From: Balanoglossus misakiensis
Taxonomy: Eukaryota > Animalia > Hemichordata
Direction: 5' to 3'
DNA: 64,000 nt
Assembly: GCA_040954595.2 (NCBI GenBank)
Contig: CM082589.2
Span: forward strand, 1,727,910 to 1,791,909
Position 1 is the stretch's first letter. Each line of letters begins with the position of its first letter. The translations under genes were made by a program, and so were the position numbers. The notes below the pieces were generated by a model. It searched no databases. It saw only the letters and a program-made list of their open reading frames with translations, and was not told the origin of the DNA. This document shows, piece by piece, positions 27,974-63,314 of this stretch.

Positions 27974-30900
27974 TCACTCCTCTGTACAAAGGTGGAAAAT
28001 TTACAATTAGAATATAGGAAATTCTCGGACTTGAAGGCACTCTCCCAGTAAAATTTCAAACTCTGAAATCACTGAAATCAAAAAATCTCTCGGCGCATGG
28101 AATTCTCTGTCTGTCTGCCTCTCTCTCTCTCTCTCTGACTCTCTGTCTGTCTGTCTGTCTGTCTCTCTGTCTGTCTCTCTGTCTCTCGCTCTCTCTCTCT
28201 ACTTGGCACTCAGATGAAAATAAGAGCTTCATAATCCTTCTCTTTACTTCAAACACTCACCCGTTATGGTGACACTAAATTCACAGGAGGCACAGTTGCC
28301 GGACGAATCACTGGCTGAACAGCTGACTGTTGTCTCGCCTTTTGAGAACTCTGACCCGCTGGACGGTGAACAGATGACGTTGACGGGGTCTCTGGAATCG
28401 TCGTTGACTCTTGGATCATCCCAGGTTATGCTCTCACCTGATTTTGTACTTTCTATGTCTTGAGGGCAGGTGATAGTCGGAGCAGTCGTGTCTGTTGGTG
28501 GAAAAGGGAAATTTGAAAGGTGAATGATGGAATTGGCCAAGAAGAAGAAGAAGAAGAAGAGGAGGAGGAGGAGGAGGTGGTGGTGGAGGAGGAGGAGGAG
28601 GAGGAGGAGGAGGAGGAGGAGGAGGAGGAGGAGGAGGAGGAGGAGGAGGAGGAGGAGGAGGAGGAGGAGGAGGAGGAGGAGGAGGAGGAGGAGGAGGAGG
28701 AGGAGGAGGAGGAGGAGGAGGAGGAGGAGGAGGAGGAGGAGGAGGAGGAGGAGGAGGAGGAGGAGGAGGAGGAGGAGGAGGAGGAGGAGGAGGAGGAGGA
28801 GGAGGAGGAGGAGGAGGAGGAGGAGGAGGTGGTGGTGGTGGTGGTGGAGGAGGAGGAGGTGGAGGTGGTGGTGGTGATGATGATGATGACGACGACGACA
28901 ATACAAGTTCTTTGAGCATACGCACATTAATATTATAATACGGAATTAACAAGTTCATCTTGCGTGCATGTGTGCGCAAATCAAATATTTGCTCAGCGAC
29001 ACAATCGACCGTTTTGTGATGACACCCCGGGCATGTAATTGACAAACTCCACATACATAATGATTGGATAATAACTACAATAGGATGAATATAAATAAAA
29101 TACTGTTTTGCACAACTGTTACGGATTAATAGTCATCAGTCTGCCGACAGTATACAAAAAGCTGTCACTTACTGATCAATCGAAAAGGCTTTGGAATAAA
29201 AAATGACATTAAAACGTGGACTACAAAATAATGTGTCAGTGCAGATGTCACGCGAATATATGGAAAGCAAAATAAAAATAATTTCGACAAATTTGATATT
29301 AAAAAGATTAATGAACGTATGTTTATGGCAGACAAATGAAATCAGTGCACTTTATTTTTGTCTTTGGATGTCATTTCTGGACCGATCAGCGCGACAGCTG
29401 TGGCAATCCACCGTCGCGACTGTTGGCCAGACTGTAGCCAGACCCTGCGATATAATCGCCAGCGTCGAGATAACTGTAAGCCTGCTGCGCCAATAACTGT
29501 CAAAATACGACTGCTATCATCATGTCACGCGCACATTTGGTGTTTCCGATATCAGCGTCGGTTTTGGTGCACGGCAATGAGGTTTTGCGAGTATATATTT
29601 ACCTTCGTTGCTGTCAGTCCAAGGACTGAGATCCATTTCTGGGATCTCACTGCACTCGACACGGTCGCCATCAACTCCGGGCATTAGAAACACGTCTGCC
29701 TGTACTTCAGTAATATCAGTGTTGTCACAAATAACTCGAGCCAGACTTGCCTTCTTCAGTTCCACGACTTGATCCTGGGTGAATACGCCTTCATTTTCGT
29801 ACCAAAATCTGAACAGTTAGACAGGGTGGGGAAATAAAAAAGATTATCTTAAGAAAGATCATTTTTGTCATTATACATATGTTCAAATAGACGTTACAAA
29901 GACACCATAATCAAATCATTCCTAATCATACCAAATGACACATGCTTCAAATGACACATACTTTAACTGTGTTACTATATACGATGCGTCATCAATTCAG
30001 ACATATATTTACTTCTTAGAAAGACAAAAGTGTGCACATGAAAGTACTTAGACCTCATTTATACCTATCTCCTTCCTTAAGGGCAAGGAACTGCCTCTTC
30101 AACAGACAAGTGAAAGTTGGTCCCAACAGACTTCCGGGGAGTGGATCTTCTGCTAGGGCACCGATATACAAATCAACATTATCAGGACTGCCATACAGGT
30201 GTTGAAGCTTGTCTCGGATGGCTTTGTTGGTGATGTCATCACTGAGATCGGCAAAGGACTCTGCGTTGCTCAATCGACACTTCTTCCGCCATTTTGTGTA
30301 ACCAGGGAGACCATGATCACGTCCACGTTGAAGGTTCAGCGCCATCAGATCCAAGGCTATGGCGTTCGAGAGTTCAAAGAGATGCTCTGTCAGTTCATCA
30401 GACATGATCTCGTCTGGTGTGAGATCCTTGGCGGCAGTGCTGAAAAAGCCTCTGAGGATAGGGTCTATGCCTCCTTCTTGGACGATGCGCCAGGGCTGGA
30501 AGAAAACCTTGCGCAGGGGCAGGTTGCCCTGTTCGATCGGTTGGTAGTCTGGACCCAACCTGGGGAGGATGGGTTTCACAGTGGAATGGCCGTACCTGTA
30601 AGCTGCTGTTGCAAACATGTTGAAGACTGAGGCATCTTCATCGGGGTTGTACCCAGACACTCTTTGGATCCTTCTTGCTGTCGCGTCACCCAGGACCTTC
30701 GGCAAGTAGCCGTCATAAGAGATGTGTTGCATCAGGGCGCCAATAATCTTTCGGACTTCTTGGTAGATGGTCTCATCGTCCCAGCGTGGGTTCAGATCAG
30801 CTAGGATACCGGCCAATCGGTTGTGTTCTCTGATAAACAAGGTGTGAAGGGACGTCAAGCCTATAAGCTCGTTCGCTCTCACATCTCCCGCCATGAAACA

Positions 30901-32489
30901 AGGAACCGTTTCACTCTTGTCGTCGCTCACGCAGCCCATTCTTGCGTCTTCATCGTAGGGGAGGAAGGGACGCGATCCTTCTGCAGTCCCTACTTTCATT
31001 GCGCCTTTGTCAAATTCTCTCAGTTTGTCAGCAACCGATTCTGAGCTACCATAGACCTGAGAAGCATCGATGTATGACGTGATGGCGTTCATCTGTTCGC
31101 GTGGGACGACTTCATCGAGATAGACAGAGAAGCTTCCAGTTCCACAAACTGCGCTGGATCTGGTGAACTCCATGCACTCTCGGTCAATCCTGGGATCGTT
31201 CGCCGGGACGGGGATTGGGAAGCATGGAGGATCATTGTCACAGATCTCGCTGCACTTGGAACCGTCTTTGAACGACACCGAGCTGGGACTGGCAGGTGTG
31301 AGATCGACATCGTGATCGAGAAACTGGCCCCAGAGAGACACGAGGTCAGTCAGTTCTTCGTGGTCGGTGACGTGACTAGTGCTGCCGACTGTAGTAGACA
31401 CCAGGCGGGGGCTGGGCTTCTTGTTTCCGCCATACGTCATCTCGCTGTTCCAGCCGATGGGTTCGTTGAAGTCGTTTTCATACTCGGCCTTCAGGAGGCG
31501 AGCAAACGGTCTCAGAGCAGCTCCTTGGTTCGGCTTGCCAAGATTGTTGCAAGTGCCATCATAGGTACGATACTTGGCGTGGTAGCACATATCCTCGCAC
31601 TCCACTGGTTGGTTCAGGCTACTGCAGCCGGACAGTTGAGCAATTTGTTCAAGTAAATCTGGAGTCAGTTGGTCTTCAAAGTCAACATCTGCTGGCAAAA
31701 AAGGTACAGACGAACCTGTCTATAATGGCCAGTCAAGGGACTTTCATAAACCGGCCTTTATATACAGGTCAATTAAAGCACATATGAATTGCACAGGGAC
31801 TGTAACAAAGTTGCCACTATACACATAAGTCTCGACAACACACCTCTCGAAGAACCATCACAAAAAGAGTAATTTACGATCTTTGCTTATCACTCACCTC
31901 GCCTATGCATTCCATCACTGTCCCGGTCTTTCAGCTTCTCAATGACCGATTCAAAGATTTCTTGCGATCTGGCCACTTCTATCATCTCCTCGGAAGGGAA
32001 TCGGAACAATCGGATCAGATCACCTGGACTGCTGGGTCTGGGGTTTTCCAAGATGGCCCTTTTCGTCTCGTGTATCGCTCTATCCACAGTGTTTATAGCA
32101 TCGTGTATAGTCTGGTCAATGAATGGGTCTCCTGTACTGGGGAACGCTGAGTCTATTTCGCCTGTGATCAATGGAATAAAATACATCAATTGTTGAAGAT
32201 AACTGTACTTTTCTATTGTTCTCTCCACACTCTAAACAATGCAATTGAATTTTATTATATTATTCAGCAGAGATTGTCGTTTTTGTACAGATCGTTTAAA
32301 AACTTAGCGACTGCTTTTCACCTGAACAGTCACAGTAATGCACCCCCTTTTTTCATTCTATTTACTTTAATTTGTCTACTTAAGCGACGGGGTGACGCCC
32401 ATGTATCAAATAATGCAAAAGACTGCCTTACCAGAACAGTACACCGATGCCACGGCGAGCAGTGCAGCGATCCCGAAAACGGATGCCAT
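27974..32489 (-). CDS. Peroxidase A: secreted peroxidasin-derived heme peroxidase with C-terminal HYR domain, ~797 aa
   Basis: Exons (minus) 32432-32489 (signal peptide MASVFGIAALLAVASVYCS), 31898-32161 (propeptide GDPFI..TVDRAI..DLIRLFRFP), 30065-31691 (WGQFLDHD, ITSYIDAS, GDVRANEL, RYGH, NLQRGRDHG), 29603-29808 (FWYEN..LARVICDN), 28261-28491 (HYR), 27974-27981 (terminal micro-exon, ..EE*). If the last intron is unspliced the protein ends GECLK* at 28244. Confidence 0.93.
28105..28200. repeat. (CT)n/(CTGT)n microsatellite in last intron of peroxidase A
   Basis: Read directly. Confidence 0.9.
28539..28899. repeat. Long compound (GAA)n-(GAG)n-(GTG)n-(GAT)n-(GAC)n microsatellite; pure (GGA)n ~28585-28829
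   Basis: Read directly; source of the poly-L/P/E/R ORFs. Lies in the intron upstream of the peroxidase A HYR exon. Confidence 0.97.
31705..31769. mobile_element. Remnant of a Tc1/mariner-pogo-type MITE end in a peroxidase A intron
   Basis: Begins TACAG..AACCTGTCTATAATGGCC. Inverted arms 31714-31730 and 31753-31769 match at 15/17. Family assignment is by resemblance only. Confidence 0.45.
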
Positions 32490-32942
32490 CGTTCCCTGTG
32501 GAGACAATTGAATGTAGGACACTTCAATCTAATCACATACAATTGTTGACTTAGCATTGGATTCACGGCAATAGCTAAAGGTGAAGGGGCGGTTCTGGTC
32601 ATAGATCAGGGAAATAAATTAAGATAGAAGGTATGATAAAGTACATTTGTATTGTATTTAAAAGTATGCAATGAGGTGAAACAGTGTCTCTCTCAACGCC
32701 CCCTGTCTGTGCACGTGTGTCTCTCTCTCCCTCTCTGTCGACCCTCCCTTCTCTATACATCTCTCTCTTGACCTCTCTTTCTACACCTCGACCTTGACTT
32801 GTCGTGTCAAGATGTCCGTCTAGTCGATAATGTTGCGGAAACTTATCGGTTACGGTCACTGACCGAACTGAACGTTGGTCACGACTTGACAGAAAGAGAC
32901 AACTTTAGTTACAGTACTCAACAACACACCCCGGGTCGTATG

Positions 32943-32950
32943 CTTTTATA
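32943..32950 (-). promoter_or_regulatory. Candidate TATA box (TATAAAAG) for peroxidase A
   Basis: CTTTTATA on + strand, ~450 nt upstream of the ATG; the ATG exon has its own acceptor at 32496-32498, implying a 5' UTR exon. Confidence 0.45.
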
Positions 32951-35610
32951 CAGACGATACTAACATGTCATTAAGTACAAGGACACGACAATTAAAACTT
33001 TATGTCTACATACCTGTCTCTGCGAGTCTGGAAACTGAAGTAACTCCACCCTGTCGACACTCTCCAAATTTATGTCGCCGATCTCAAATTAGCATATGCA
33101 AATTTTCTAATGCCTAAAGATAACGGTCGACGTGACATGTACAGAACTGTCAATCGTGTTGCAAATGCCATATGTGACCAGATTTATTTCTTCTTCTCCC
33201 TAAAATTTACTCATACTTTTAAAAACGTGTATTAGTTCTTGAGGCCGTCTGTATTTTCTCAACACCACTAGATAACATATAAAGTAAAATCAGCGTGAAA
33301 AATATTAGTAAATCAAAATTGGCCACATTAAAGAGTGTGTCATATATTTGATCTTTACATCAATTTCCAAAGCCATCTCATTCGACAAGGTCACTTTAGC
33401 ATCTAATATGCACATAATGCATTGGATAATAAAGAATTAAATCAGAGAAAGATTATTCTTAAGCCTCGGCAAACAAAAGTTCAGCGCAACTGGATGAATA
33501 GTTTATGAAAATGAGTGTTTTGACAAAAATAACACGAATTTCTAAAGTTTACACGTTGCAATAAAAATACCCAGGACCCAATAAACAACATTTCATAGAA
33601 ATGGGACAATTTCCTCAAATCAAAACAAGACTACGACAACAATGCAGGTATTATTTTATATTTTATATAACTTATCACTGATACGTTAGTAACCCCTCAA
33701 CAATAAAAAAATGAAGTATTTTCACGCAACTGTATTGCATGTTTTTCAATTATATTTTCCGTCAAACACGAAAGGACATCCAGTTTGTATCTTGAGTGAA
33801 ATATTGGGGGTGGGCATTGATTCGTGCACATGTGCGTAAATAACAGCTCGTTTTACGGAAACAGACATAAAACGTAAATAGTAGAGTTCGCCCTAAGATT
33901 GAATTCATCGATCATTTTATATGTCATTTGTCTTAAAATAGCTGCGCTGGGACTCTATTGTAGCAGAGCAATCGCAGGCACGAATCACGACGATACAAGA
34001 ATAGACCGTTTTTCCGGTTTCCACGAGACCTTGCGAGATCTCAACTGCCTCGAGTTTTCGCAGTCAATTTATTATTTATAAGTTATACGCACTTGCTAAG
34101 TGATTTGCTGCAGCAGCTAACGAGTTCATAAAAGGGTAAAAATCAAAACACTAAGAAACATTTTAGAAAGTGCTAAAACCGATATGGGAGGGCGTGTACT
34201 TAATAAAGTATACAAAAACTAATTAAATATTTCGCCACCGCTGGGGGATTATAGCAGCTGTGATGAGGCAGCTGACGTCAGATTAGAAAGCGTGTTACAA
34301 TGTATTTGGATAAATTACCAAAAGCTTAATTTTGAACCCTGGAGAAAAGATTCTCTGACTACTCATAGCGGATTCCTCACCAATGGACGCGGTGTGTGCG
34401 CATGCTCACTGTTCGTGAAGGCCACGCATTGGACGACAGAATAACGGGTGTTAACCATGGCGGCCAACAGTAGGAAACAAAAAATCTCATAGAAAAAAAT
34501 GGCATGTCAGGTTGAAAAACTCGGTCGTGTGGGGGCGCTCGCACTGCTGTGCGAGTTTGATGTATGACTAATGCGCATTACAATAAAACAAAATGGTTTA
34601 GTATAGCAAAGTTATCAAAGTTATGCTGTGTGATGTTTTACTTAGGGCTTATTGCAAAAAGTTCCTAATAAATCTCAACAGGGCTGGATATTTAAAGGCT
34701 GACGATCGTCTGATGCGCATGTGCGTCACTTCGTGTGTACAAACTTTCCGTCCAATCCAAATATTCTGCAAAGTTTGCGTTCGACGTATTCAAATAGTGG
34801 ACTACTTTCGTATCATTGTGGAGAGACTGTGATTATGCGAATAACAGAATCGGAGTGACAAAATAAAATTCAGAATTTGCAAGGCCAATTTTTGAAATAC
34901 ATACATACTCAAACACAGACTTTTCCCGCGTCTTAAATCAGTTTTCAAAGGTCTTCCTCAGTTCGAGTATACCTCACACAAAGCGTGAATGATATTCAGT
35001 GACAATGGATCTCGTCTGGCGATTGTTTTCGTTTTACACATTCCAAAAATAGAAAGGCTTCTTTTGGTAAGGCACTCCCCTTAATGTACCACTGACAAAG
35101 GATGTGAAAATGGCTTCTTCGTTAAAATAGTTGTGATGCAAATTCCAGTTGGAACAAACTAAACTAAAACGCAACAACACAAATTACTCTGACCATTTAG
35201 GCCACGACAAGCAGAGGAGCAACAGAGGACCGCACAACAGGTAAGAAATGTCCGTTTTGAGTTTTACTCACTACATTGTATTCACAAAGTGGGTCATTTC
35301 ATTTTGTAAAAAAAATATCCAAACGGCACAGTAGGCAACACGAAGTCAAACAATTAAAATTATGCCACGCGGAGACAGGGGAAGGGGTTTAAGGATTTCC
35401 TGCGCAAGGTAGTACAAATAGCACCAGCAGAACATTTAGAAGACAAACGTATAACAATAATGATTTAGTTTTGATGGATGTACGGCCATTTTGATCTGTA
35501 CTTCTTACACTACGCGTGCGCACACCGGTTTAAAAAAAACTGAGATACATTTATTTTGATTACATGTGCTTATAATTATTTGTATTACTAGTATTAAACT
35601 TTCAGCAACC

Positions 35611-38600
35611 ATGGAGTTGCGTCGGATCACATGGTGTATATTTATTATAGGAAGTCTTTCGGCGATCATAGGTAAGTGCTATCTACTACAGATGATATTG
35701 TAGCTCTATGGTGAGAGCACAGGACTGGGGTGAGGCGTTGGCTATGAGCCCCCCCCCCCCGCCAATTTATACCGCTGGCTGCGCTGTCCTTTTCTTGTAG
35801 TAAGGCGCAGCCAGTGGTAGAATTTGGGTCAGGGGAGTAGGGTTAGGGCTTTGCAGTGAATCAAGGTTCTCATAGTCGGCCCTCATAGTGTGGGCATTTT
35901 TGCTACGTTCGCGAAGAATCACAGTACCCACGAAATAAGACAGCACTCAGAATGATGATTGTTGTTTGTTGTTTAAACCCCTCTAAGATGCTGATGACAA
36001 TGGACAAGGTGTCAATGACGCCATCATTCAACATGCATTGGAACTGGGCAGGAATGTCGTGGATCGAGCCATCGCTGAAACAACAACTGCATTATTTGGC
36101 GGAAAGCCAGCGAGCTCCAGTGACCTCCTGAGACTGTTCAGGTTCCCAACTCCGGAAGTTGTTGAAATTGCCAGGGCAGATGAGACCTTCCACGCTGCCC
36201 TTGATATTATCAAAGATTACGATGGTATTCAGTCAACCGTGGGTCGTGAAGGGCATGTGCAACCGAGTAAGTACAAGAAATCTGAGGTTCTACTGGTGCC
36301 TATTATATAATGTACATGTATATATGTATCGAACACATGTGGGAAAATATTGCAGTCATACTACATTATGAGATACGCCTAAATTATTCAATATACTTCA
36401 GTTTGGATTCATTTTCATTTAGATTAATCTAATTTAATTTACAGACTTAAGGGAAAAACTTACAGACAGAAACATCCGGGATATTATCACACTCTCTGGA
36501 TGCAAGGATGTTGCAGATGTCACGTGTCACGACTCGTGCGCACATGCTAAGTACCGTTCGATCAACGGCTCATGTAATAACCTTGAAAAGCCAACCCAGG
36601 GTGCTGCTTTGACACCCTTTGCCCGCCTCCTCCCTCCCAAATACGACAACCGCTTTAATGAACCAGTCGGGTGGCAAGAATCCGCGAACCCCCTGCCCAG
36701 TCCGCGCCTAGTGTCCAGAGTTGTCGGCTCGACTGATGACCTTACAGATGATGGCGACAGAAGCGCCTTCGTCATGCTTTGGGGTCAGTTCTTTGACCAT
36801 GACATCAACCATACTCCCCAGAGTCCAAGTTCGGTGGCGTTCAACGATGGGACGAAGTGTAGCGAAACCTGCGAGAACAGCTTTCCTTGTTTCCCCATAC
36901 CTGTACCGGCTGGCGATCCTCGGATACACACTGAATGCCTTGAATTTATCAGGTCCAGTGCAATGTGTGGGACTGGATACAAAACTCGGTCAGGCAGGTT
37001 GGTGCCAAGGCAACAGATCAATTCTATTACCTCATACATTGACGGCTCGCAGATTTACGGCAGTTCGCAGAGACTTGCAGATAACCTAAGAGCACACGAC
37101 GGAAAAGGGAGTCTGAGAATCAATGATGAAAAGGAGGTTCCAACTGGAAGACCACTACTGCCCTTTGACCCCGAATCTCCACCAGCCTGCTTGAGTGAAA
37201 GCAGTTCCAGAGAGGTCCCCTGTTTCCTTGCTGGTGATGTCAGAGCCAACGAGCAGGTGGGTCTGACCAGCATTCACACGCTGTTTCTCAGAGAGCACAA
37301 CCGTATCAGTGAGCGATTGTCTCAACTCAACCCTCACTGGGACGATGAAAAACTCTACCAAGAAGCTCGCAAGATCGTTGGTGCAGTACTTCAACATATT
37401 ACTTATGACCACTATCTGCCCAAGGTTCTTGGGCCAGAGGGCATGCTCCAACTGGGAGACTACCAAGGTTATGACGCCAGCGCAGATGCCTCTATCGCAA
37501 ATGTTTTTGCCACGGCCGCTTTCAGATTCGGCCATGGCACTGTCCAACCGATACTCCAACGGCTCCAAGCAAACTTGCAACCCATCCCAGAAGGCAACCT
37601 TCCTCTTCATCTGGCCTTCTTTCAACCCTGGAGACTTGTCGAACAAGGCGGCATTGACCCTATCCTTAGAGGCTTCTTCGCTACACCCGCCAAGCAACTC
37701 ATTCCAGACGAGATAATGACAGACGAGCTGACAGAACGTCTCTTCGAGATGGCTGAAGCCGTCGCCTTGGATCTCATGGCACTCAACATTCAGCGCGGAC
37801 GAGATCACGGATTGCCATCTTATACCCAGTGGCGCCAAAAGTGTGGAATGCGGAAACACAGTTTCCGTCAAATGGGTCGGGAGATCTCTGATGAACATGT
37901 TATGGATAAACTGAAAGAGCTTTACGATAACCCCAGCAGAATAGACCTGTTTATCGGTGCTATGGCGGAAGACGCTCTCCAGGGTGGAATTCTGGGTGCA
38001 ACATTTACATGTTTGCTGGCAACTCAGTTCAAAAATTCAAGAGCTGGAGACAGGTTCTATGCAATATTTTCATTCTTCCTCAATGTACTCAAACAACTTA
38101 GCAATGTGGGGGGAAATATTACTAAATCCCGACTGGGAATGTATGGGGAAGTTTCATCTACTGAGCTTCCACGTGAACCACACGCTTTTTCGCTATATTG
38201 ACAGAAGTTGATGTCACATATTTTACCGATGTAGACGCGAACAGCGGTTACACTGGGATTTTTTTCTTGGAACATGGATGGTATTTCTAATAATCACCGA
38301 CTTTCATTTTTTTCAGATTTTGGTACGAGAAACCTGATGTTTTCACCGAGTCTCAACTTGCTGAGATCAAAAAACATTCACTTGCCAGGATTATCTGTGA
38401 AAACACCGACATCAATCAAGTTCAGGAAGATGTCTTCTTGACCCCAAAGAATAACAGACCACTCATTGATTGTAGTGAACTGGACAACATGGATTTGAGT
38501 TTATGGGCCGAACCCACTGGAGGTAAGTTGACCAATTGTGTTGATATGGCCGTACACAATATCTACAAGTCGATATTTTGATCTGTGTATAAACTGCTAT

Positions 38601-38990
38601 TTCTACTTCACCGCCTTCAAATTACAACCGTGTGGAGATTCATAGCCCTGAGCCACTGATAAACATTGAACATTTTAGCGTTGGCTGCTTTACACAGTTG
38701 CATCTCTCCATATTTCACAGTTGTTTGCATCCATTTTGTTTTCATAATCAGGTCCGACGCCACCAACCATCACGTGTCCTGGTGACATCACAGTAGACGG
38801 CAACCGGAAGGGCGCGACTGCAACCTGGGAAGATCCGTTGGGGACTGATAGCACCGGAAGTGCTGCTGACGTCACATGTTCCCATACTAGTGGTTCCAAC
38901 TTCCCGCTGGGAGTTACACCGGTGACTTGCTCAACCTTTGACCTTCTGGGAAACTGTGCGTCATGCTCATTCGAAATCACGGTCGATTGA
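35611..38990 (+). CDS. Peroxidase B: secreted peroxidasin-derived heme peroxidase with C-terminal HYR domain, 797 aa
   Basis: Exons 35611-35671 (MELRRITWCIFIIGSLSAII), 35988-36266, 36445-38053 (WGQFFDHD, ITSYIDGS, GDVRANEQ, FRFGH, NIQRGRDHG), 38317-38522, 38752-38990 (HYR PTITCPGD..W.DP..GNCASCSFEITVD*), total 2394 nt. Probable 5' UTR exon ending at 35240 (CAG|GTAAGA). Confidence 0.94.
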
Positions 38991-39169
38991 TTTAAACAAG
39001 ACTGACAGACTGGCCAATCAAGATATGGCGTATCGAGAAAAAGCTGTTTCCATGACAACAAGACTGTAGGACTTTCTGTCTCATGACTTCCTGTCACATG
39101 GCTTCCTGTCAAATGATGCTTGCTCTCTCCTGGGACGCCGCCCAGCAAAACTAATCATGTTGTGTTATG

Positions 39170-39175
39170 AATAAA
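39170..39175 (+). terminator. Poly(A) signal AATAAA for peroxidase B
   Basis: First AATAAA, ~180 nt after the stop codon. Confidence 0.5.
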
Positions 39176-39936
39176 GATTACTAAAAATCAACAGGCACGG
39201 TTGTATGAGACGAAATTACTCTTTATATTAAGTATGCGAGTTTTTTCTGATTTAATAAATTATGGTGTGCGAGGCAACGGAAATTTCAATGAAGATAACA
39301 CAATGAATTCTGGAAAGTCGCTCTTGAAATTCAAATCGGGCGCCTGTACTCATAAGTTGGTAATTGGCAAAGCCATGTAAGCCATCTCTTATCGCGAATA
39401 TGCAAATTGTTTTTGTCCAACTATTGCGTCATGAGTGACACTTTTTCTTTGCTTCGGCTTTGATGAATGAGTTGTCACATTTTATTAATCGGTCAGTTTT
39501 TTGCTTTGACAGTTATTTTAGCATTGTACTATACTGTCTATGATTGTACCAGCCGTCAGTAATTGTGCGCTGTTGGTCTTTACTGGGTAGCCTATAAAAC
39601 AGTCACATCACACAGACTGTGGTACAAACAATATGAAACCATATGTGGCTTGACATCATTACTGACCCTCGTCTCACACAATTCATCTTTTAAAAAACCT
39701 TAATTCATCTTTAAAAAAAAACTTAAATAACACAAAACAGACATTTGGAGAACTACAAATGCAAAAAGGGTCGTGAAAATGTGCCACCTTTGTTTCTGGG
39801 GTATTACAAATTTGATTGGCACTCGTTAGTCTATTGTTCGATGATGGAATTTGACTCAGTGTATCTGTGCACAAACTGACAGATTCGCAAATTCGCGATG
39901 CATTCCACGGTCCCTTCACCACCTGGATATTTTACA

Positions 39937-39944
39937 TATAAAAG
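39937..39944 (+). promoter_or_regulatory. Candidate TATA box (TATAAAAG) for peroxidase C
   Basis: Followed ~75 nt later by a strong donor CAG|GTAAGA at 40019/40020. The ATG exon has an acceptor at 40997-40998, consistent with a non-coding first exon. Confidence 0.55.
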
Positions 39945-41003
39945 CTTATTACGGCTTATTACCCATCACCCTCCCACACAACTACAAGTAACATCATTCG
40001 GTTCCGGATCGTTGAACAGGTAAGATCGTACTGTCTGTGTCTTAAGTTCCCCGGCCCCTTCAGCATGGAATCATACAAATTTCACCGTATACAAAGTCAC
40101 ACCTGAGATAACACCAAACATCCTGTCTTTACTTGGCATCGCTATCATTTTCGAAGGGCTTTACTTGTCAAGTGTGATTTTCTTTTCTCTTGGATGTTCT
40201 GTACTTGACTGTGCCATCAACAACTTTTTTTTCAAATTGGTCGGACTCGTTTTATTTTACCGCGACGTGTTTCCTATAATAAGAGGCAGTTTGACAACCC
40301 AATCAACTTGTCTAAAACTAAAAGCCCGAAATTGGCCAAAGTCACACAGTGCAAGTGCCACCAGGAGCCATCGTTAATTTCCGAAAGCGAGAGAACTTTT
40401 TTTTAAGTGTGACCAAGAAGATGTTTTTAAATGCGCGCCAAAAGCAGTCAACAAGAAAGGTTAACAATGAATTGAGAATGAGTTTGATAATTAACACATC
40501 GTTATATTTGTGACAACGGGTTTTAAATTGTTTCTGCTTCAAGTGCGTATTATCGCGCGTCGCGTCGGACCAATCAAAAATACTCATTTCGGAGTTGATT
40601 GTTTTCACACCTTGGGTTAAAACAAAAGATAAAATTCTCAGTTTCGATGATGTCAGTCTCATTAACGGGAATTTGCTTACAAAGTAGTCACACATCAGTT
40701 TTTATTGGGTCCTGGGGATAATCCACTCTTTCAACGCCATAATGAACTTGCCGTCAGTTGTCTCAAAATTAACCTGGTAACGTTTTTCACATTTTTGTTA
40801 AACTTTGATTATGTCGCAGCTTGGGTGCGGTGCGGTGGGTGGGGTTTGGGAGTGGAGGGGATGTTCGAACCTGTCCTGGTTTGTGCAAGCGGCGTCGTCT
40901 CTCATCTCGAGGCAAGATCGCTCTCAACTACGAAGCGAGTGTCTTGCTCATAGCCAGTCCATTTGTAACTTCGGATTCCCCCCTTTCATCTTTTTCAGAA
41001 ATC

Positions 41004-44000
41004 ATGAAGCCGTATGCGTTAGTTTTAGTGATTCTGTTCTGTACAGGTAAGCGATGGATATTATTAACCATAAACGCTGTCTAATGCGTTCAGCAGGTAA
41101 AAGTTCGATATGGTTAAATCTAGTGATGGCATGATTCGCACACGTCGATAAATTACAGACAAGAATGGACATGATCTCTGACATCTTCCTAACCTGTGAC
41201 CATAGGTTTCAATACAGCCAAATTCAAAAGCATAATTCGTATGTCTTAAAACTAAAACGTTCTGTGCGTTTTGTCATGTCCCAAATTTATCTGGTGCTGT
41301 GGATAAACGATGCTTTCCAATGAGATTTATGACAAGTTGCACACACGCTGTAAAAGTATGCTACATCTGCTCACGAAACATAAAGAATGTTCACTGTTAT
41401 ATTCTCTCTTTTCAGAAATCGCTACTGGGCAGGATGTGGACGACGACATCATACAAAATGCAGTCGAAATGGGCAGAAACGCTGTGGACAGAGCGATTAT
41501 GGAGACCCAGCGAGCTTTACTGGACAGGAAACCGAAGAGCTCGAACGATTTGTTGACACTCTTCAAGTTTCCATCTGCAGACGCTGTTGAGATTGCAAGG
41601 GCGGAAGAAACCTTCCAGGCGGTTCTTGAAATACTTTCAGACCATGACGTTGGGGGCGCTGGGTCTGCCTTGTTTGGGTGGCCAACAGGTAGGAGTACGA
41701 TTGGTTTTCCTTCTCTACTGCATTACAGACCAAATAACACGAAACTTTCCCAAAGCGACTGCAAATTTTACTGCACCATTCATATTCTTTATATATTAGT
41801 ATCCTATCATTTACAGATGCGAATAATGCACACCCTCTGACGGACAAACTCGTTAAGAAGATCATGGAGTTGTCTGGATGCAATGACGTCACCAAAGATG
41901 TCGTCTGTCAAGACCTGTGCAAGTTTTCTGAGTATCGTACACCTGATGGCACGTGCAATAATCTGGACAAGCCCACCCAGGGAGCTACCCTGACCCCATT
42001 TGCCCGATTTCTGGATCCTAAATACGAAAACCACTTCAATGATCCAATTGGATGGGGCGACACGGCAGGTGGTCCAGAATCTTTGCCGAGTCCTCGCCTG
42101 GTTTCCAATGTCGTTGGTTCAACTGATACCATTACAGACGACAGCGAACTAAGTGACTTCGTCATGGTTTGGGGCCAGTTCCTTGATCATGATCTTGACC
42201 TGACACCCCAGAGTCCAAGTTCAGTGGCGTTCAAGGACAACGTGAGATGCAGCGAAACTTGTGAAAACAGCGCCCCCTGTTTTCCCATTCGAGTCCCAGC
42301 TGACGACCCACGCATACGACATAAACAATGTCTTGAATTTATAAGGTCTAGTGCTGCATGTGGTACAGGATATATCACTGGCTCGGGCAGGCCTGTGCCC
42401 CGGGCGCAGATAAACGCAATCACATCATACATTGATGGCTCGATGATATATGGCAGTTCAAAAACCCTCGCAGATAAGCTGAGAGCTTTCGATGGAAAGG
42501 GTCGACTCAGAATAAACGAGGACAGAGAAGTACCATCTGGTGGAAACAGTGGAACAAACGAAGAAGAAACATCTGGCCGACCATTGCTGCCCTATAACAC
42601 CGAATCTCCATTAGCCTGTTTGAGTGAAAGCAGTTCTAGAGAGATCCCCTGTTTCCTTGCTGGTGACGTCAGAGCCAACGAGCTGTTGGGTTTAACCAGC
42701 ATTCACACGCTGTTTGTCAGAGAACACAACCGTGTGAGTGAGAGATTATCTGAACTCAATCCTCACTGGGACGATGAAAAGTTGTACCAAGAAGCTCGCA
42801 AAATCGTTGGTGCTGTAGTTCAACACATTTCTTATGACCACTATCTGCCCAAGGTTCTTGGGCCAGAGGGCATGCTCCAACTAGGAGACTACCAAGGTTA
42901 CGACGCCAGCGCAGATGCCTCTATCGCTAATGTTTTTGCCACGGCCGCTTTCAGATTCGGCCATGGCACTGTCCGCCCGATGGTCCAACGGCTCCAAGCG
43001 AACTTGCAACCCATCGACGAAGGAAACCTTCCTCTCCATCTGTCCTTCTTTCAACCCTGGAGACTTGTCGAACAAGGCGGCATTGACCCTATCCTTAGAG
43101 GCTTATTCGCCATCTCCGCTAAGCAACTCATTCCAGACGAGATAATGACAGACGAGCTGACAGAGCGTCTCTTCGAGTTGGCTCAAACCATCGCCTTGGA
43201 TCTCATGGCTCTCAACATTCAGCGCGGACGGGACCACGGATTGCCATCCTACACCTCTTGGCGTCGGATGTGCCAGGTCGGTCGGGGAGATTCCTTCAAC
43301 CAACTGAAAGGCGAGATCTCCAACCAGGATGTACTTGATAAATTGAAAGACCTTTACAAGGAGCCCAAAAATATTGACCTGTTTATTGGCGCCTTGGCAG
43401 AAGATCCACTCCCTGGTGGCATTCTTGGGCCGACGTTTACATGTTTGCTGGCAACTCAGTTCCAAAAGACAAGAGCAGGAGACAGGTAAATGTGCCGAGG
43501 AATGATGCTTGCCAGATTCATAGGTTTAGTTTGATTTGGTTGCTATGGTTACATGTGACTGTTATTCTGTGGCCGTTAATATTTCGAGTCGATCAGCACT
43601 GGCTTTCTGTCTGAACAACACACTTCAAGACTAGAATAGCTGTGAAACTAGATATACCAACTGATTGTGGCGACACACTCTGTAAATGTTTAACAGTTCC
43701 AACCAAATTTCTAGGCGCATTTATATACAATGTAGTACGAATAGTATAGTTTTAATTACAAATTCATGCATGTCTATTTTACAGATTTTGGTACGAGAAT
43801 CCGGGTGTGTTTAGTAGTTCTCAACTGACTGAGATCAGAAAACAATCACTTGCTCGAATCATCTGTGACAACACCAATATCAACAAAGTCCAGTCAGATG
43901 TCTTCTTCAGCCTTACCACTGACAGACCCCTTCTTAAGTGTACTGATATAGCCGGAATGGATTTGACACTGTGGACTAAGGATGTTGATGGTAAGCGGAC

Positions 44001-44348
44001 TTTTAACTTAGTTATCACTGATTAGCCAATGTGGAAAGTTACTTGTGGACTGTGGTCATGAAGTTCTATGGTAGATATAGTGATCTTGTTTCCATATATG
44101 ACGCGTCTTTTTTATATCCAGGTGAGACACCTCCCACCATCGTGTGTCCAAATGACGTCACCAAGGAAGGCAACGGTGGAGGGGCGAGAGTAACATGGGA
44201 TGATCCAGTTACCTCTGCTGCTGACGTCACATGCTCCCATACCAGCGGTTCTGAGTTCCTGCCTGGAGTGACAACAGTGACCTGTTCGACCTTTGACCCT
44301 TCTGGAAATTGTGCTTCCTGTTCCTTTGCAATCACTGTTACTATATAA
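41004..44348 (+). CDS. Peroxidase C: secreted peroxidasin-derived heme peroxidase with C-terminal HYR domain, 805 aa
   Basis: Exons 41004-41046 (signal MKPYALVLVILFCT, continuing EIATG in exon 2), 41416-41688, 41817-43485 (WGQFLDHD, ITSYIDGS, GDVRANEL, FRFGH, NIQRGRDHG), 43785-43990, 44122-44348 (HYR), total 2418 nt. Confidence 0.94.
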
Positions 44349-44754
44349 CATGGGTGGGTACTGTCCACGGTGGAGGGGAAGCATATTCGATGACGACAGA
44401 AATAATGTAACTTTTGAACATACTAAGTTTGCGAAAACGCACCCCTTGTCCGAAATAGGACATGCGGTTAGGGGAATAAAAGTTAGATAAATCCTATTTC
44501 ACTTTGTGTATGACTTAGAATCTACAATGTACAATGTATGTATGTATACAACCATTGAACTAACTATTTCATGCAAACCTGGGCTTAAATAAACAAACAC
44601 ACGAAGGTCTCATTCTAGTGTCTTCTTTATTTGTGGAAACATGCCAGCATAATATTTAATATTGGAATCTACTTTCAACTGCTTGTTTCCCACGGGATCG
44701 GAGAGTCATATTCTCTGCAATAGAAATAGAACACACATCGTTAATATTTAGGAC

Positions 44755-44914
44755 ACATACATACATACATACATGCATACATACATACATACATACATAC
44801 ATACATACATACATACATACATACATACATACATACATACATACATACATACATACATACATACTAGTACATACATACATACATACATACATACATACAT
44901 ACATACATACATAC
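44755..44914. repeat. (TACA)n tetranucleotide microsatellite
   Basis: Read directly; gives the YVCM-repeat ORF 44656..45021. Lies in the predicted 3' UTR intron of peroxidase D. Confidence 0.97.
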
Positions 44915-45021
44915 GACAAATGCTTAGCCACTAAGTGTGTATTTGTTTTGTTTATAGCAGTTGAGTTTGTATTCACGGATATAATAACAAAAAACAAAAG
45001 TCGTTTTATCGCACTCACCAT

Positions 45022-48000
45022 CTACTCTATGTGTACGTTGAAATCACAGGTTGAGCAGTTACCGTCTGTGTCAACAGAGCTACAAGTAACTTTTGTCACT
45101 CCATTTTCAAAGATTGCTCCACTTGTGTGGGTACATATAACATGGGCGTCATCATCGGTTACTGGGTCATCCCAATCAGCAATGCCAGCCCCACAAGATT
45201 CGGCTTGTACTGTGACGTCACCAGGACACACAATAGATGGAGCTGTGCCACCTATCAATAGAGCAAATGTATTATTGATTGACTGGTTCAGCACCACGTG
45301 ACGTTTGTGAATGATTTACTGTCTTTGACACTGCCACAATGTCGATTGATTGATTGGTTGGTTGGTTGATTGACTGACTGACGGATTGTTTGATTGATTG
45401 ATGGATGTATCGATCGATTGATTGATCGTATGATCGGGGCATTACCTATCATTCCTTCTGTCCACGCTGTCAAATCCATTTCATTGATAGCACTGCAATC
45501 TAGAAGAGGCTTGTCAACAGTTGGAGTCAAAAAGACATCCTCTTGGACTCGAGTGATGTTAGTGTTGTCACAGATAATTCGAGCAACTGATTGCTTTTTG
45601 ATCTCAGCAAGCTGGGAGTAAGGGAAGACATAAGACTTCTCGTGCCAAAATCTGGAGGGGAAAAAGATAATGACATTGTTTTATTTTGTGAATTTCCATA
45701 CAACATGATGCATCATTCGGGTTGAAATAAAACAATAGAGTTACTTCTGATAGGAATGACAAGATTCTCCAAATTAAATATTTAATTACTTGCAATTTGT
45801 GTATAACTATTGAGCGTGACAGTTATCAAAACAGACATGTTTTCTGACAAAAAATGTTTCCGGAAAATGTCAGGGATAATTACCTGTCGCCAGCTCTTAA
45901 ATTCCTAAACTGGGTTGACAACACACAGGTGAACGTTGGACCAAGAATGCCTCCAGGAATAGCGTCTTCCGCCATGCCACCAATAAACAGATCGACGTTT
46001 TTGGGATGACCATACAACTGTTCAAGTTTGTTACGAACATCTACATTTGAAATCTCTTGCGCCAGATCATCAAACGTGTTTCCAGGTTGTAGGCCACACA
46101 GCTTCCGCCAGCTGCGATAACCTCGAAGGCCGTGGTCTCGTCCGCGTTGGATGTTGAGAGCCATGAGATCTAGGGCGACAGTTTCGGCCAATTCGAAGAG
46201 ATGCTCTGTCAGCTCGTCAGTCAGTATCTCGTCTGAAGTGAGTTGCTTGGCAGGTTTGGCGAAGAAGCCTCTCAGGATAGGGTCAATGCCGCCTTGTTCG
46301 ACAAGTCTCCAGGGTTGGAAGAAAGCGAAGCGGAGAGGAAGGTCCCCTTCCATGATGGACTGCAAATTGTCTTGAAGTCGTGGAATGATTGGTCGGACGG
46401 TGCCGTGGCCGTATCTGAAAACGGCCGTGGCGAACACGTTGGCTATGGATGCATCGACATCAGGATCATAGCCTTGGTAGTCGCCAAGCTGTTGCATGCC
46501 CTGCGGTCCCAGAACTTTAGGGAGGTAGTCATCAAAGACAATGTGTTGAAGTACAGAACCGACGATTTTGCGAGCTTCTTGGTACAGCCTTTCATCATCC
46601 CAGTGAGGATTGAGTTGAGACAATCTCTCGCTGACACGGTTGTGTTCTCTAAGAAACAGTGTGTGCATGCTGGTCAGACCCACCTGCTCGTTGGATCTGA
46701 CGTCACCAGCAAGGAAACAGGGAACGTCGTTGGTGGCACTGTCACTCAGGCAGGCGAGAGGACTATCGGGGTCGTATGGCAAGAGTGGTCGACCGGTAGG
46801 AACTTCTGTTTCCGCATTCACTTTCAGACTCCCCTTGCCATCGCGTGCTCTTAAATAATTTGCCAGTGTCTGTGAACTGCCGTAAATCTGGGAGCCATCG
46901 ATGTATGATGTAATTGCATTGATTTGCTCTCTGGGCATCACCTTGCCTGATGAAGTGAAGTAGCCGGTACCGCAAACGGCGCTGGACCTGATGAAGGTGA
47001 GACACTCTTCTTGTATGCGGGGGTCTCCATCCGGGATCTGGATGGGAAAACAGGGATTGCTGTTATCGCAGGATGCACTGCACGCCACCCCGTCCTTGAA
47101 AGACACTGAACTTGGACTCGCAGGAGTGAGATCAATGTCATGGTCGAGGAACTGGCCCCACAGCATGACAAAGTTGCTCCGGCTAACATCAGTGGTGAAC
47201 GTGTCAGTTGAGCCAATTTCTGTGGACACCAGACGGGGACTGGGCAAAGCTGGACAGCCATCGCCCGCATCGTTCCATCCGACGGGTTCATCTATGAAGT
47301 TCTCGTAACGTGCAGGCAGGAGGCGTGCAAAGGGCGTCAATGCAGCCCCCTGGGTGGGGTGTTGCAGGTTATTGCACGTGCCATCAGCGGTGCGGTACTT
47401 TGCATGTAGGCACACGTCTTCACAAGAAACATTTTTGTGAAAGGCACTGCATCCAGAGGCGTCCATGACTTGATCTACAACTTCTCGCGTTATCCGTTTT
47501 CCTGTCACTGAAAAATTAAACGGAGAAATAAACATCCGATTAAAACCTTAATAATTCTTATTTTGGATATTTTTCATAATTTTCCTCCAATGCATCAACT
47601 CTGGTTTCTTGTTATACCCTGAACAGCTGTATGAAATGTAGGTCTATATGAGGAACGACCATTACTGTTGATAAACAATATTCATAGTCAAAGATAGTGG
47701 TCTGCTCTCAGATGAAATTTGACAAGCTAGCAGGATACATGAAGTTTTACGTTGTCTGTCTGTCTCTTTGTCTGTCTGTCTGTTTGTTTGTTTGTTTGTT
47801 TGTTTGTTACCTGAGCGTCGTTCACGATCGGACATCACGCCTCTGGCGTCGCGGTCTCTGATCATCTCCATGGCTGCTCCGAAGACTTCATGAGACCTGG
47901 CTATTTCGACAGCTTCACGGGTCGGGAACCTGAAGAGCATCAGTAGGTCGTTTGGAGTTCTCACTTTTCTGTCCCGTAAAACGTTCTGGGTTTCCATAAT

Positions 48001-48426
48001 CGCTCTGTCGACGGTATTTCCTCCAATTTCCACGCAGTCTTTGATAAATTCATCACTTATATGCTGTCCATACGTGATATCTAAGTAGGAGGAATAGATA
48101 TGGTTTCCATGGTTATTTCAACAAACTCAATCTTTACACCGACAGTTTATTTCACTATTGGTTGTAATTCAACGCAGGGTTCGCCCTTTCCCTAGCACCC
48201 AGCAACCAAGTCTATATTGTCAGCCCAAAAACGGACCACTCTGACCACGTTGATGCTACCCTTGGTGCTAAATGGTACATTTAAAGTAGATTTGCAACAA
48301 CAACATACAAAAGCATGGCACATACTATCATTTTTTGTCAGGTAAAACAAAACTGAAGAACAAATTCTTACCTGAGAATATCAGAATACCAACCAGTGGA
48401 TAAATCCACATGCGAAACAACTTCAT
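45022..48426 (-). CDS. Peroxidase D: secreted peroxidasin-derived heme peroxidase with C-terminal HYR domain, 794 aa
   Basis: Exons (minus) 48372-48426 (GCCACCATG Kozak; MKLFRMWIYPLVGILIFS), 47811-48080, 45884-47507 (WGQFLDHD, ITSYIDGS, GDVRSNEQ, FRYGH, NIQRGRDHG), 45446-45651, 45022-45251 (HYR), total 2385 nt. Confidence 0.94.
45343..45432. repeat. Degenerate (GATT/GGTT/GACT)n tetranucleotide tract in peroxidase D intron
   Basis: Read directly. Confidence 0.8.
47753..47808. repeat. (TGTC)n-(TTTG)n microsatellite abutting the donor of peroxidase D exon 2
   Basis: Read directly. Confidence 0.88.

Positions 48427-61984: not shown

Positions 61985-63314
<1,330 letters not shown>

What the first reader, a model, noticed from the sequence alone, without database searches (positions are those of the whole stretch)
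27974..48426. Four-gene cluster of secreted 'peroxidasin-core + HYR' heme peroxidases: an unusual domain architecture
Seen: four intact paralogues (A-, B+, C+, D-) in ~20 kb share the same exon plan. It runs signal-peptide exon, propeptide exon, ~1.6-kb catalytic exon, a 206-nt exon of identical length in all four, then a HYR exon. Known: the propeptide and catalytic sequence (VDRAI..DL..LFRFP..ARS.E.F, SGC..C..C..KYRT.DGTCNNL, GGIDPILRG, LTE.LF) is peroxidasin-like. Canonical peroxidasin is LRR-Ig4-peroxidase-vWC, TPO ends in CCP-EGF-TM, and MPO/LPO/EPO/ovoperoxidase lack a C-terminal adhesion module. HYR is the Ig-like repeat of echinoderm hyalin and SVEP1/SRPX. Inference: a lineage-specific family in which the peroxidasin engine lost its collagen-IV-targeting modules and gained a HYR anchor, then expanded. 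I do not know of a characterised peroxidase-HYR protein, but cannot search to confirm novelty.
Basis: partly seen in the sequence, partly recalled or inferred. Interest (0 to 1): 0.9.

Follow-up and report, generated by a model that had tools for sequence, protein, structure and literature searches.

The report
Acorn-worm peroxidases with clamped HYR tail
Four intact neighbouring gene models encode heme peroxidases that end in one HYR (Ig-like) domain, a layout whose only animal matches here are acorn-worm proteins; they are likely secreted bromide-oxidising enzymes whose tail is predicted to be disulfide-locked to the enzyme, and they would be testable candidates for making the worms' unexplained brominated compounds.

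Summary
Four stop-free gene models (A-, B+, C+, D-; 794-805 aa) each give signal-like leader, propeptide, An_peroxidase and one HYR; exon 4 is 206 nt in all four; the window has no LRR/Ig/vWC sequence. The layout is not unique to this genome: it is already in databases for Ptychodera, Glandiceps and Saccoglossus (15 of 392 peroxidases examined), including a Saccoglossus 'TPO-like' RefSeq protein. These form one strongly supported acorn-worm clade. Descent from peroxidasin is plausible but unproven: AU tests reject neither a peroxidasin (p=0.15) nor a TPO/MPO-sister origin (p=0.51). All catalytic residues are kept and MPO's Met243 is absent, so bromide/iodide/thiocyanate oxidation is likely. 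New here: the cysteine that links peroxidasin trimers (C736) and locks TPO's CCP domain (C146) is kept, its peroxidasin partner C1315 is gone, and the HYR carries an extra cysteine (14 of 15 family HYRs, 0 of 618 other repeats) that is lost together with it. HYR therefore likely replaces that partner. No RNA or activity data. Appended modules are common in this superfamily, so 0.9 is too high: a new variant, interest 0.5.

The parts
27974..32489 (-). Gene A, 796 aa. Coding exons 32489-32432 (signal-like), 32161-31898 (propeptide), 31688-30065 (catalytic), 29808-29603 (206 nt), 28491-28261 (HYR), 27981-27974 (last 2 residues + stop). Orthologue of P. flava XP_070556075/6 and Glandiceps XP_077991438
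   Evidence: tree 99/97 and 100/98
35611..38990 (+). Gene B, 797 aa. Exons 35611-35671, 35988-36266, 36445-38053, 38317-38522 (206 nt), 38752-38990 (HYR). Weak intron-3 donor at 38054
41004..44348 (+). Gene C, 805 aa. Exons 41004-41046, 41416-41688, 41817-43485 (12-aa insert), 43785-43990 (206 nt), 44122-44348 (HYR). Sister to B
45021..48426 (-). Gene D, 794 aa. Exons 48426-48372, 48080-47811, 47507-45884, 45651-45446 (206 nt), 45251-45021 (HYR). Nearest to P. flava XP_070556084 (74% over the catalytic exon)
28261..28491 (-). HYR exon of A: five Cys, the fifth (residue 784) at the start of the last strand
38752..38990 (+). HYR exon of B (fifth Cys 787)
44122..44348 (+). HYR exon of C (fifth Cys 794)
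45021..45251 (-). HYR exon of D (fifth Cys 784, plus an extra Cys 738)

Best explanation
The four gene models encode paralogues of an acorn-worm family of heme peroxidases with an intact active site and one C-terminal HYR domain; they are likely secreted, soluble enzymes that would use H2O2 to oxidise bromide (also iodide or thiocyanate) for brominating and antimicrobial chemistry in body secretions, with the HYR predicted to be locked onto the enzyme by a disulfide. Shown: domain order; all catalytic residues; no transmembrane stretch; absence of LRR/Ig/vWC and of MPO's Met243; the cysteine pattern; family monophyly. Inferred step 1: the hydrophobic leader directs secretion. Step 2: heme is ester-linked through Asp and Glu as in LPO/EPO/peroxidasin; without the sulfonium link it favours bromide over chloride (established family knowledge; about 0.8). 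Step 3: the spare cysteine before the KYR motif (peroxidasin C736 = TPO C146) pairs with the HYR's fifth cysteine (about 0.75). It most likely does so within one chain, like TPO's POD-CCP bond, so the enzyme would not trimerise the peroxidasin way. Step 4: lacking the Ig domains that bring peroxidasin to collagen IV, it releases HOBr or brominates small aromatics outside basement membrane, in epidermal or pharyngeal mucus (about 0.45).
For: Distal Gln, ester Asp, distal His, Ca-binding Asp and loop, distal Arg, ester Glu, proximal His and Asn are present in all 16 family domains; the Met243 position holds L or Q (Q against MPO's M). The AF2 model of the P. flava D-relative has pLDDT 89.5 and pTM 0.87 and matches proMPO at E 7.7e-54; its tail folds as an Ig/PKD-like sandwich (best Z 8.1). 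Of 15 conserved peroxidase-part Cys, C736-eq is kept in 14 of 16 family domains; C1315/1316/1319 are absent in 16 of 16. C736-C1315 makes peroxidasin trimers (PMC8533639; PMC10657184). Cys146(POD)-Cys756(CCP) locks TPO (PMC9986399), and rodent TPO spacing shows this is the same position (offsets 593-645 vs human 596-648). The fifth HYR Cys is in 14 of 15 family HYRs and 0 of 618 repeats from 18 HYR-only proteins. Glandiceps P0009 (no HYR) and P0275 (2-Cys HYR) both lack C736-eq. Across 39 chosen peroxidasin, TPO/MPO and family proteins, spare Cys and a C-terminal partner Cys agree in 38. Ig domains mediate collagen IV association. Enteropneusts hold abundant bromophenols, haloindoles and bromoquinones whose source is unknown (PMC6315191).
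Against: There are no expression, localisation or activity data. The covariation is borderline once kinship is allowed for: 6 independent pairs, sign-test p 0.03-0.06. The rows were hand-picked, and the scoring rule was corrected after a first pass gave 33 of 39 and p about 0.25. One amphioxus model (P0419) breaks the rule. Two family members and a P. flava isoform (XP_070556076) lack the HYR or its fifth Cys, so the clamp is dispensable. No coordinates were returned, so the bond distance was not measured. Halogenase genes and activity have been reported in bacteria from an enteropneust, so the haloaromatics may be symbiont-made. Peroxidase domains alone can still form some sulfilimine bonds.
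Confidence: 0.5

Rival explanations
1. Soluble counterpart of thyroid peroxidase: sister to chordate TPO/MPO, with HYR standing where TPO has its CCP domain, iodinating tyrosines in pharyngeal or larval tissue.
For: AU p=0.514, with the constrained tree 0.39 lnL higher. Same spare Cys and a module 14 residues after the domain-end Trp (TPO: 10). NCBI names the Saccoglossus member 'thyroid peroxidase-like'. The best Atlas structure row is thyroid peroxidase, aligned over query 26-790. Soudi 2012 places some hemichordate proteins closest to chordate peroxidases.
Against: No EGF or transmembrane segment. Identity is higher to peroxidasins (43-50%) than to fish MPX (38-39%). The uninterrupted catalytic exon ending at GDR is also seen in 17 unnamed peroxidasin-type ORFs, whereas vertebrate TPO/MPO are intron-rich there (recalled). 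Four or more paralogues suit a defence or chemistry role better than hormone synthesis (inference).
Confidence: 0.15
2. Extracellular cross-linker: the enzymes harden mucus, burrow lining or egg coat by dityrosine or similar bonds, with HYR binding a hyalin-like matrix.
For: HYR repeats build very large proteins (18 HYR-only proteins with 20-57 repeats). The chemistry allows one-electron tyrosine oxidation (family knowledge).
Against: A single, probably clamped HYR gives little avidity, and no binding partner is known. Some members lack HYR.
Confidence: 0.17
3. At least one paralogue is the peroxidase-type 'luciferase' of luminous acorn worms, oxidising brominated hydroquinone with H2O2. This is compatible with the best explanation.
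For: [quoted passage not shown] P. flava luminescence uses a polybrominated quinone and riboflavin (PMC4208949). The B/C/D subclade holds only window and P. flava genes (99), and both luminous genera cited are Ptychoderidae.
Against: The evidence is circumstantial only. Any peroxidase, including Duox or peroxinectin types, could fill the role. It is not known whether the window's species is luminous, and the family also occurs in Saccoglossus and Glandiceps.
Confidence: 0.13
4. Peroxidasin helper that cross-links collagen IV, with HYR substituting for the Ig domains.
For: HYR is Ig-like. A bare peroxidase domain can form some sulfilimine bonds. An origin from hemichordate peroxidasin is not rejected (p=0.153).
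Against: Full-length peroxidasin is retained in relatives. The trimer partner C1315 is lost, and monomeric peroxidasin cross-links less well.
Confidence: 0.05

Closest known systems
Peroxidasin (PXDN; peroxidase-cyclooxygenase subfamily 2)
   Same: Propeptide, catalytic residues, all 15 core Cys including C736, 43-50% identity, one large catalytic exon ending at GDR
   Different: No LRR, Ig, coiled-coil tail or vWC; no C1315; HYR instead; own clade outside the eumetazoan peroxidasin group in the best tree (85/97, not firm)
Thyroid peroxidase (TPO) and amphioxus/ascidian TPO-like proteins
   Same: Signal-propeptide-peroxidase followed directly by a small beta module with five Cys; the same spare Cys (146)
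   Different: HYR instead of CCP; no EGF, no transmembrane anchor; orthology unresolved
LPO/EPO/MPO
   Same: Soluble pro-peroxidase plan and fold (proMPO 5mfa)
   Different: No Met243 sulfonium residue; keeps the spare Cys and a C-terminal module, which the MPO-type proteins checked lack
Saccoglossus NP_001161670/ACY92669 'thyroid peroxidase-like' (794 aa; very likely SkoPxd01, PeroxiBase 7615, by species and length) and P. flava XP_070556075-84, Glandiceps XP_077991654, XP_077994498, LOC144445911
   Same: Same family and architecture; 51-69% identical to the window models (XP_077994498 not in that table)
   Different: Auto-named 'peroxidasin-like' or 'TPO-like'; the Soudi 2012 text has 0 occurrences of 'HYR' or 'hyal' (figures not seen)
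Bacterial multi-domain peroxidase P0384 (cluster named Maricaulis sp.)
   Same: Holds both PF02494 and PF03098
   Different: Four HYR and Big domains lie before the peroxidase; it is far away in the tree; an independent fusion

Membership tests
Animal heme peroxidases (peroxidase-cyclooxygenase superfamily) | An_peroxidase domain with distal Gln/His/Arg, Ca site, proximal His/Asn | tested here: met
Animal heme peroxidases (peroxidase-cyclooxygenase superfamily) | Asp and Glu for heme ester links | tested here: met
   D826-eq and E980-eq in all 16 family domains
Animal heme peroxidases (peroxidase-cyclooxygenase superfamily) | Halide oxidation activity | not testable with these tools
   needs recombinant enzyme
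Peroxidasin | N-terminal LRR and Ig domains | tested here: not met
   No tblastn hit better than E 0.96 in 64 kb; only 2.0 kb between B and C and 3.1 kb between divergent A and B; database relatives are 782-835 aa without them
Peroxidasin | C-terminal vWC | tested here: not met
   also not listed for Glandiceps, Saccoglossus and echinoderm peroxidasins, so weakly defining
Peroxidasin | Trimer cysteines C736 and C1315 | tested here: not met
   C736-eq 14 of 16, C1315 0 of 16
Peroxidasin | Nests within the peroxidasin clade | tested here: inconclusive
   polytomy; grouping with hemichordate peroxidasin not rejected, p=0.153
Peroxidasin | Collagen IV sulfilimine cross-linking | not testable with these tools
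   needs assay
Thyroid peroxidase | CCP-EGF-transmembrane tail | tested here: not met
   Pfam gives HYR only; top 19-residue hydropathy after residue 30 is at most 1.2
Thyroid peroxidase | Cys146 equivalent present with an odd Cys in the next module | tested here: met
   the bond itself is inferred
Thyroid peroxidase | Groups with chordate TPO/MPO | tested here: inconclusive
   AU p=0.514; support 19 in the 46-row tree
Myeloperoxidase | Met243 sulfonium link | tested here: not met
   L or Q at that column
Nematode 'short peroxidasins' (Soudi 2012) | Peroxidase domain only, with Gln/Asp/Glu replaced | tested here: not met
   residues intact and HYR present
HYR domain (PF02494) | Score above gathering cut-off; Ig-like beta sandwich | tested here: met

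The most novel reading that the evidence does not exclude
This is the acorn worms' own haloperoxidase family: its members make the bromophenols, bromoindoles and bromoquinones of enteropneusts, and the ptychoderid-expanded B/C/D branch includes the peroxidase 'luciferase' described in 1963, for which my searches found no gene. It also shows one cysteine acting as a reusable socket that has captured three unrelated partners: peroxidasin C1315, TPO's CCP, and HYR.
Probability: 0.3. Interest if true: 0.8.

Novelty: new variant of a known kind. Interest (0 to 1): 0.5.

Why it matters
It defines a third branch beside peroxidasin and the chordate TPO/MPO enzymes, so the Saccoglossus gene labelled 'thyroid peroxidase-like' cannot be taken as a TPO orthologue without further work. 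It gives named, expressible candidate genes for two open questions: whether acorn worms make their halogenated aromatics themselves (stated as unknown in PMC6315191), and what the peroxidase-type Balanoglossus luciferase is. The cysteine pattern gives a cheap, sharp structural test and a general rule for how these enzymes acquire tail modules. If the enzymes prove to be ordinary mucosal peroxidases, it is one more domain shuffle in a superfamily that has many.

Tried and rejected
Own-genome search: no genome is held, so a separate peroxidasin was checked only in relatives. RNA: no RNA holder was listed; this is no evidence either way, and read laying was not used. A HYR-region homologue search returned 1 hit among 26 candidates and was uninformative. 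No solved HYR relative was found by sequence. The first AF2 model from 11 sequences failed over the peroxidase (pLDDT 42) and was used only for its HYR part. The careful 46-row tree did not finish; I used its quick tree and a finished careful 25-row tree. The first covariation pass mis-scored three CCP tails and two MPO-type leaders and was redone. Scripts had regex errors and were repeated. The Atlas showed no cluster of 50 or more members with both domains, which says nothing on small families. Earlier findings: none. Ten literature searches listed no paper describing a peroxidase-HYR family; most subscription papers are outside that library. Soudi 2015 was not held. Rejected: chance or mis-joined HYR exon (four copies in register, same order in three genera); pseudogenes (open frames, dN below dS); retrocopy origin (four introns, and a large catalytic exon also seen in peroxidasin-type ORFs); upstream LRR/Ig exons.
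Full report
1. Observation. Reading both strands and splicing at GT-AG sites gave four stop-free models: A (-, 796 aa, six coding exons), B (+, 797), C (+, 805) and D (-, 794). Intron phases are 1,1,2,1 in all, exon 4 is 206 nt in all, and identities are 54-71%. Pfam gives An_peroxidase on exons 3-4 and HYR above its cut-off on exon 5 of every gene. A profile from non-window relatives finds exactly four HYR exons in the window, and the LRR, Ig, vWC and tail parts of four full peroxidasins find nothing (best E 0.96). dN is far below dS. No genome and no RNA run were available, so splicing is predicted. It is backed by five full-length database relatives that align block by block to the same exons. 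One of them carries an NP_ accession, which by my recall marks a transcript-based RefSeq record.

2. What it is. The nine best hits to D's catalytic exon are Ptychodera flava, Glandiceps talaboti and Saccoglossus kowalevskii proteins at 59-74% identity, seven of them listed as PF03098+PF02494. Among 415 proteins in hand, 392 had a peroxidase domain and 16 also had HYR. Fifteen are records of these three species, counting isoforms and alleles, and cover Ptychoderidae, Spengelidae and Harrimaniidae. The sixteenth is a bacterial protein with the domains in another order. These were top-ranked lists (120+120+150), so distant examples could be missed. The P. flava records have consecutive accessions XP_070556075-84 on contigs of one length, which suggests a matching cluster there. 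In a careful IQ-TREE (25 rows, mixture model) the family is one clade (100/99). Gene A groups with P. flava 75 (99/97) and then a Glandiceps gene (100/98); C and D group with another Glandiceps gene (98/97). The A versus B/C/D split therefore predates the Ptychoderidae-Spengelidae split. B and C are sisters (99) and share an 85-94% identical tract in mid exon 3 against 46-77% over most of the rest, as gene conversion would give. The window is most likely a ptychoderid other than P. flava (inference from these trees). Glandiceps and Saccoglossus also keep an Ig-bearing peroxidasin (P0134, P0131).

3. Origin is unresolved. The family, eumetazoan peroxidasins (85/97), chordate TPO/MPO (98/97) and a brittle-star tandem peroxidase form a polytomy above sponge peroxidasins. 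Holding the family with hemichordate peroxidasin costs 13.4 lnL, p-AU 0.153; holding it with TPO/MPO gives p-AU 0.514. In favour of peroxidasin: higher identity (43-50% vs 38-39% for fish MPX); 17 of 110 hit proteins, all unnamed, run uninterrupted through the catalytic region and stop or leave register at GDR like exon 3 (my count by eye from the 39 rows printed; their status as genomic exons is inferred); and the Glandiceps peroxidasin lies on a contig of the same length as three family records. In favour of TPO: the tail arrangement below. Soudi et al. 2012 (PMC3533774; abstract, passages and the first third of Results read; figures not held) list a 794-aa SkoPxd01, the length of NP_001161670, and describe hemichordate proteins in a clade nearest the chordate peroxidases; the text never mentions HYR.

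4. Chemistry. All catalytic and calcium-binding residues and both heme-ester residues are present in all 16 family domains aligned; the MPO Met243 position is L or Q. A deep-alignment AF2 model of the P. flava D-relative is confident (pLDDT 89.5, pTM 0.87) and matches proMPO and LPO; the tail is an Ig/PKD-like sandwich. There is a hydrophobic N-terminus and no later membrane stretch (no signal-peptide predictor was available). By family knowledge such enzymes oxidise bromide, iodide and thiocyanate; peroxidasin and EPO make HOBr (PMC10657184, passages).

5. The cysteine clamp. The family keeps 15 peroxidasin cysteines in the enzyme part. Seven pairs are accounted for by MPO/LPO-type bonds (pairing recalled), leaving C736-eq, which is present in 14 of 16 domains, while C1315/1316/1319 are absent in 16 of 16. 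In peroxidasin, C736-C1315 builds trimers (PMC8533639, passages). In TPO, Cys146 of the peroxidase domain bonds Cys756 of the CCP domain within the chain (PMC9986399, abstract and passages), and rodent TPO spacing shows Cys146 is the same position. The family HYR has five Cys. The one three residues before the last is in 14 of 15 family HYRs and in 0 of 618 repeats from 18 HYR-only proteins (17 of 650 domains lacked the scored tail motif and were dropped). It starts the last strand, right after the final hairpin turn of the model, at the end of an Ig-type fold nearest its N-terminus (inference). Glandiceps P0009 has no HYR and Ala at C736; P0275 has a two-Cys HYR and no C736-eq. Over 39 hand-picked proteins the two traits agree in 38 (30 both, 8 neither, 1 exception), with 6 independent pairs and p 0.03-0.06. 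A first pass with faulty patterns gave 33 of 39 and p about 0.25. The bond is thus well motivated but not shown, and docking could not be run.

6. Likely role. Collagen IV association runs through the Ig domains, which are absent, and peroxidasin is retained in relatives, so basement-membrane cross-linking is unlikely. Enteropneusts accumulate bromophenols, haloindoles and bromoquinones of unknown origin, with proposed roles in deterrence, luminescence and microbial control; bacterial halogenases from one species are the stated alternative (PMC6315191, Introduction and passages). A 1963 paper title reports the peroxidase nature of Balanoglossus luciferase (reference list only, PMC8944799), and P. 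flava light involves a polybrominated quinone (PMC4208949, passages). I commit to a secreted bromoperoxidase of body secretions (0.5), against cross-linking (0.17), TPO-like iodination (0.15), luciferase as main role (0.13) and collagen IV work (0.05). PMC6562550, PMC11304627 and PMC10083991 (passages) added nothing on this family.

7. Novelty. The sequences and their Pfam architecture are already public under automatic names, and one is probably in a 2012 phylogeny. Ten searches of the open-access library listed no description of the family as such. Tail modules are common in this superfamily: Sushi-EGF, C1q, C-lectin, ShK, PAN and PKD. Verdict: a real, ancient, acorn-worm-wide variant of a known enzyme kind, with a specific testable structural prediction and links to two open questions. 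Interest 0.5.

Noticed in passing
window 35605-35610, 40998-41003, 32490-32497, 48427-48433: All four ATGs lie 5-6 nt after an AG acceptor with a pyrimidine tract, and strong donors lie upstream (near 33013 -, 35240 +, 40020 +, 48800 -), suggesting a conserved non-coding first exon.
   Followed up: no
window catalytic exons of B (36445-38053) and C (41817-43485): A central tract of about 240 codons is 85-94% identical between B and C, with exact runs of 44-61 nt, one shared with D; it looks like gene conversion.
   Followed up: partly
window 45018-45012 (-): Gene D has a GTGAGT donor just after its stop codon, at about the place of gene A's intron 5, hinting at a retained 3' intron and a phase 1-1 shuffled HYR exon.
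   Followed up: no
gene D residues 34, 193, 738; P0001, P0002: D and P. flava relatives carry extra cysteines in the propeptide, a surface loop and, in D and P0001, the HYR; possible further disulfides.
   Followed up: no
P0008 versus P0124 (P. flava XP_070556076/5): The gene-A orthologue has an annotated isoform ending just after exon 4 without HYR, which would leave the spare Cys free.
   Followed up: partly
P0126 (Glandiceps, 1647 aa): Two complete peroxidase-HYR units in one model, the second with its own leader; probably two tandem genes fused by the annotation.
   Followed up: partly
P0125 (Amphiura filiformis, 2500 aa): Four tandem peroxidase domains forming another non-peroxidasin branch in a luminous brittle star; position unresolved.
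   Followed up: partly
window 17312-17605 +, 26006-26275 -, 62218-63314 +: Flanking genes: NOL4-like helical domain, an ADH_N (GroES-like dehydrogenase) exon, and two thymosin-beta repeat exons.
   Followed up: partly
window 28540-28900 and 44750-44910: A long (CCT)n run sits in intron 4 of A directly before the HYR acceptor; a (TACA)n run lies between the convergent 3' ends of C and D.
   Followed up: no
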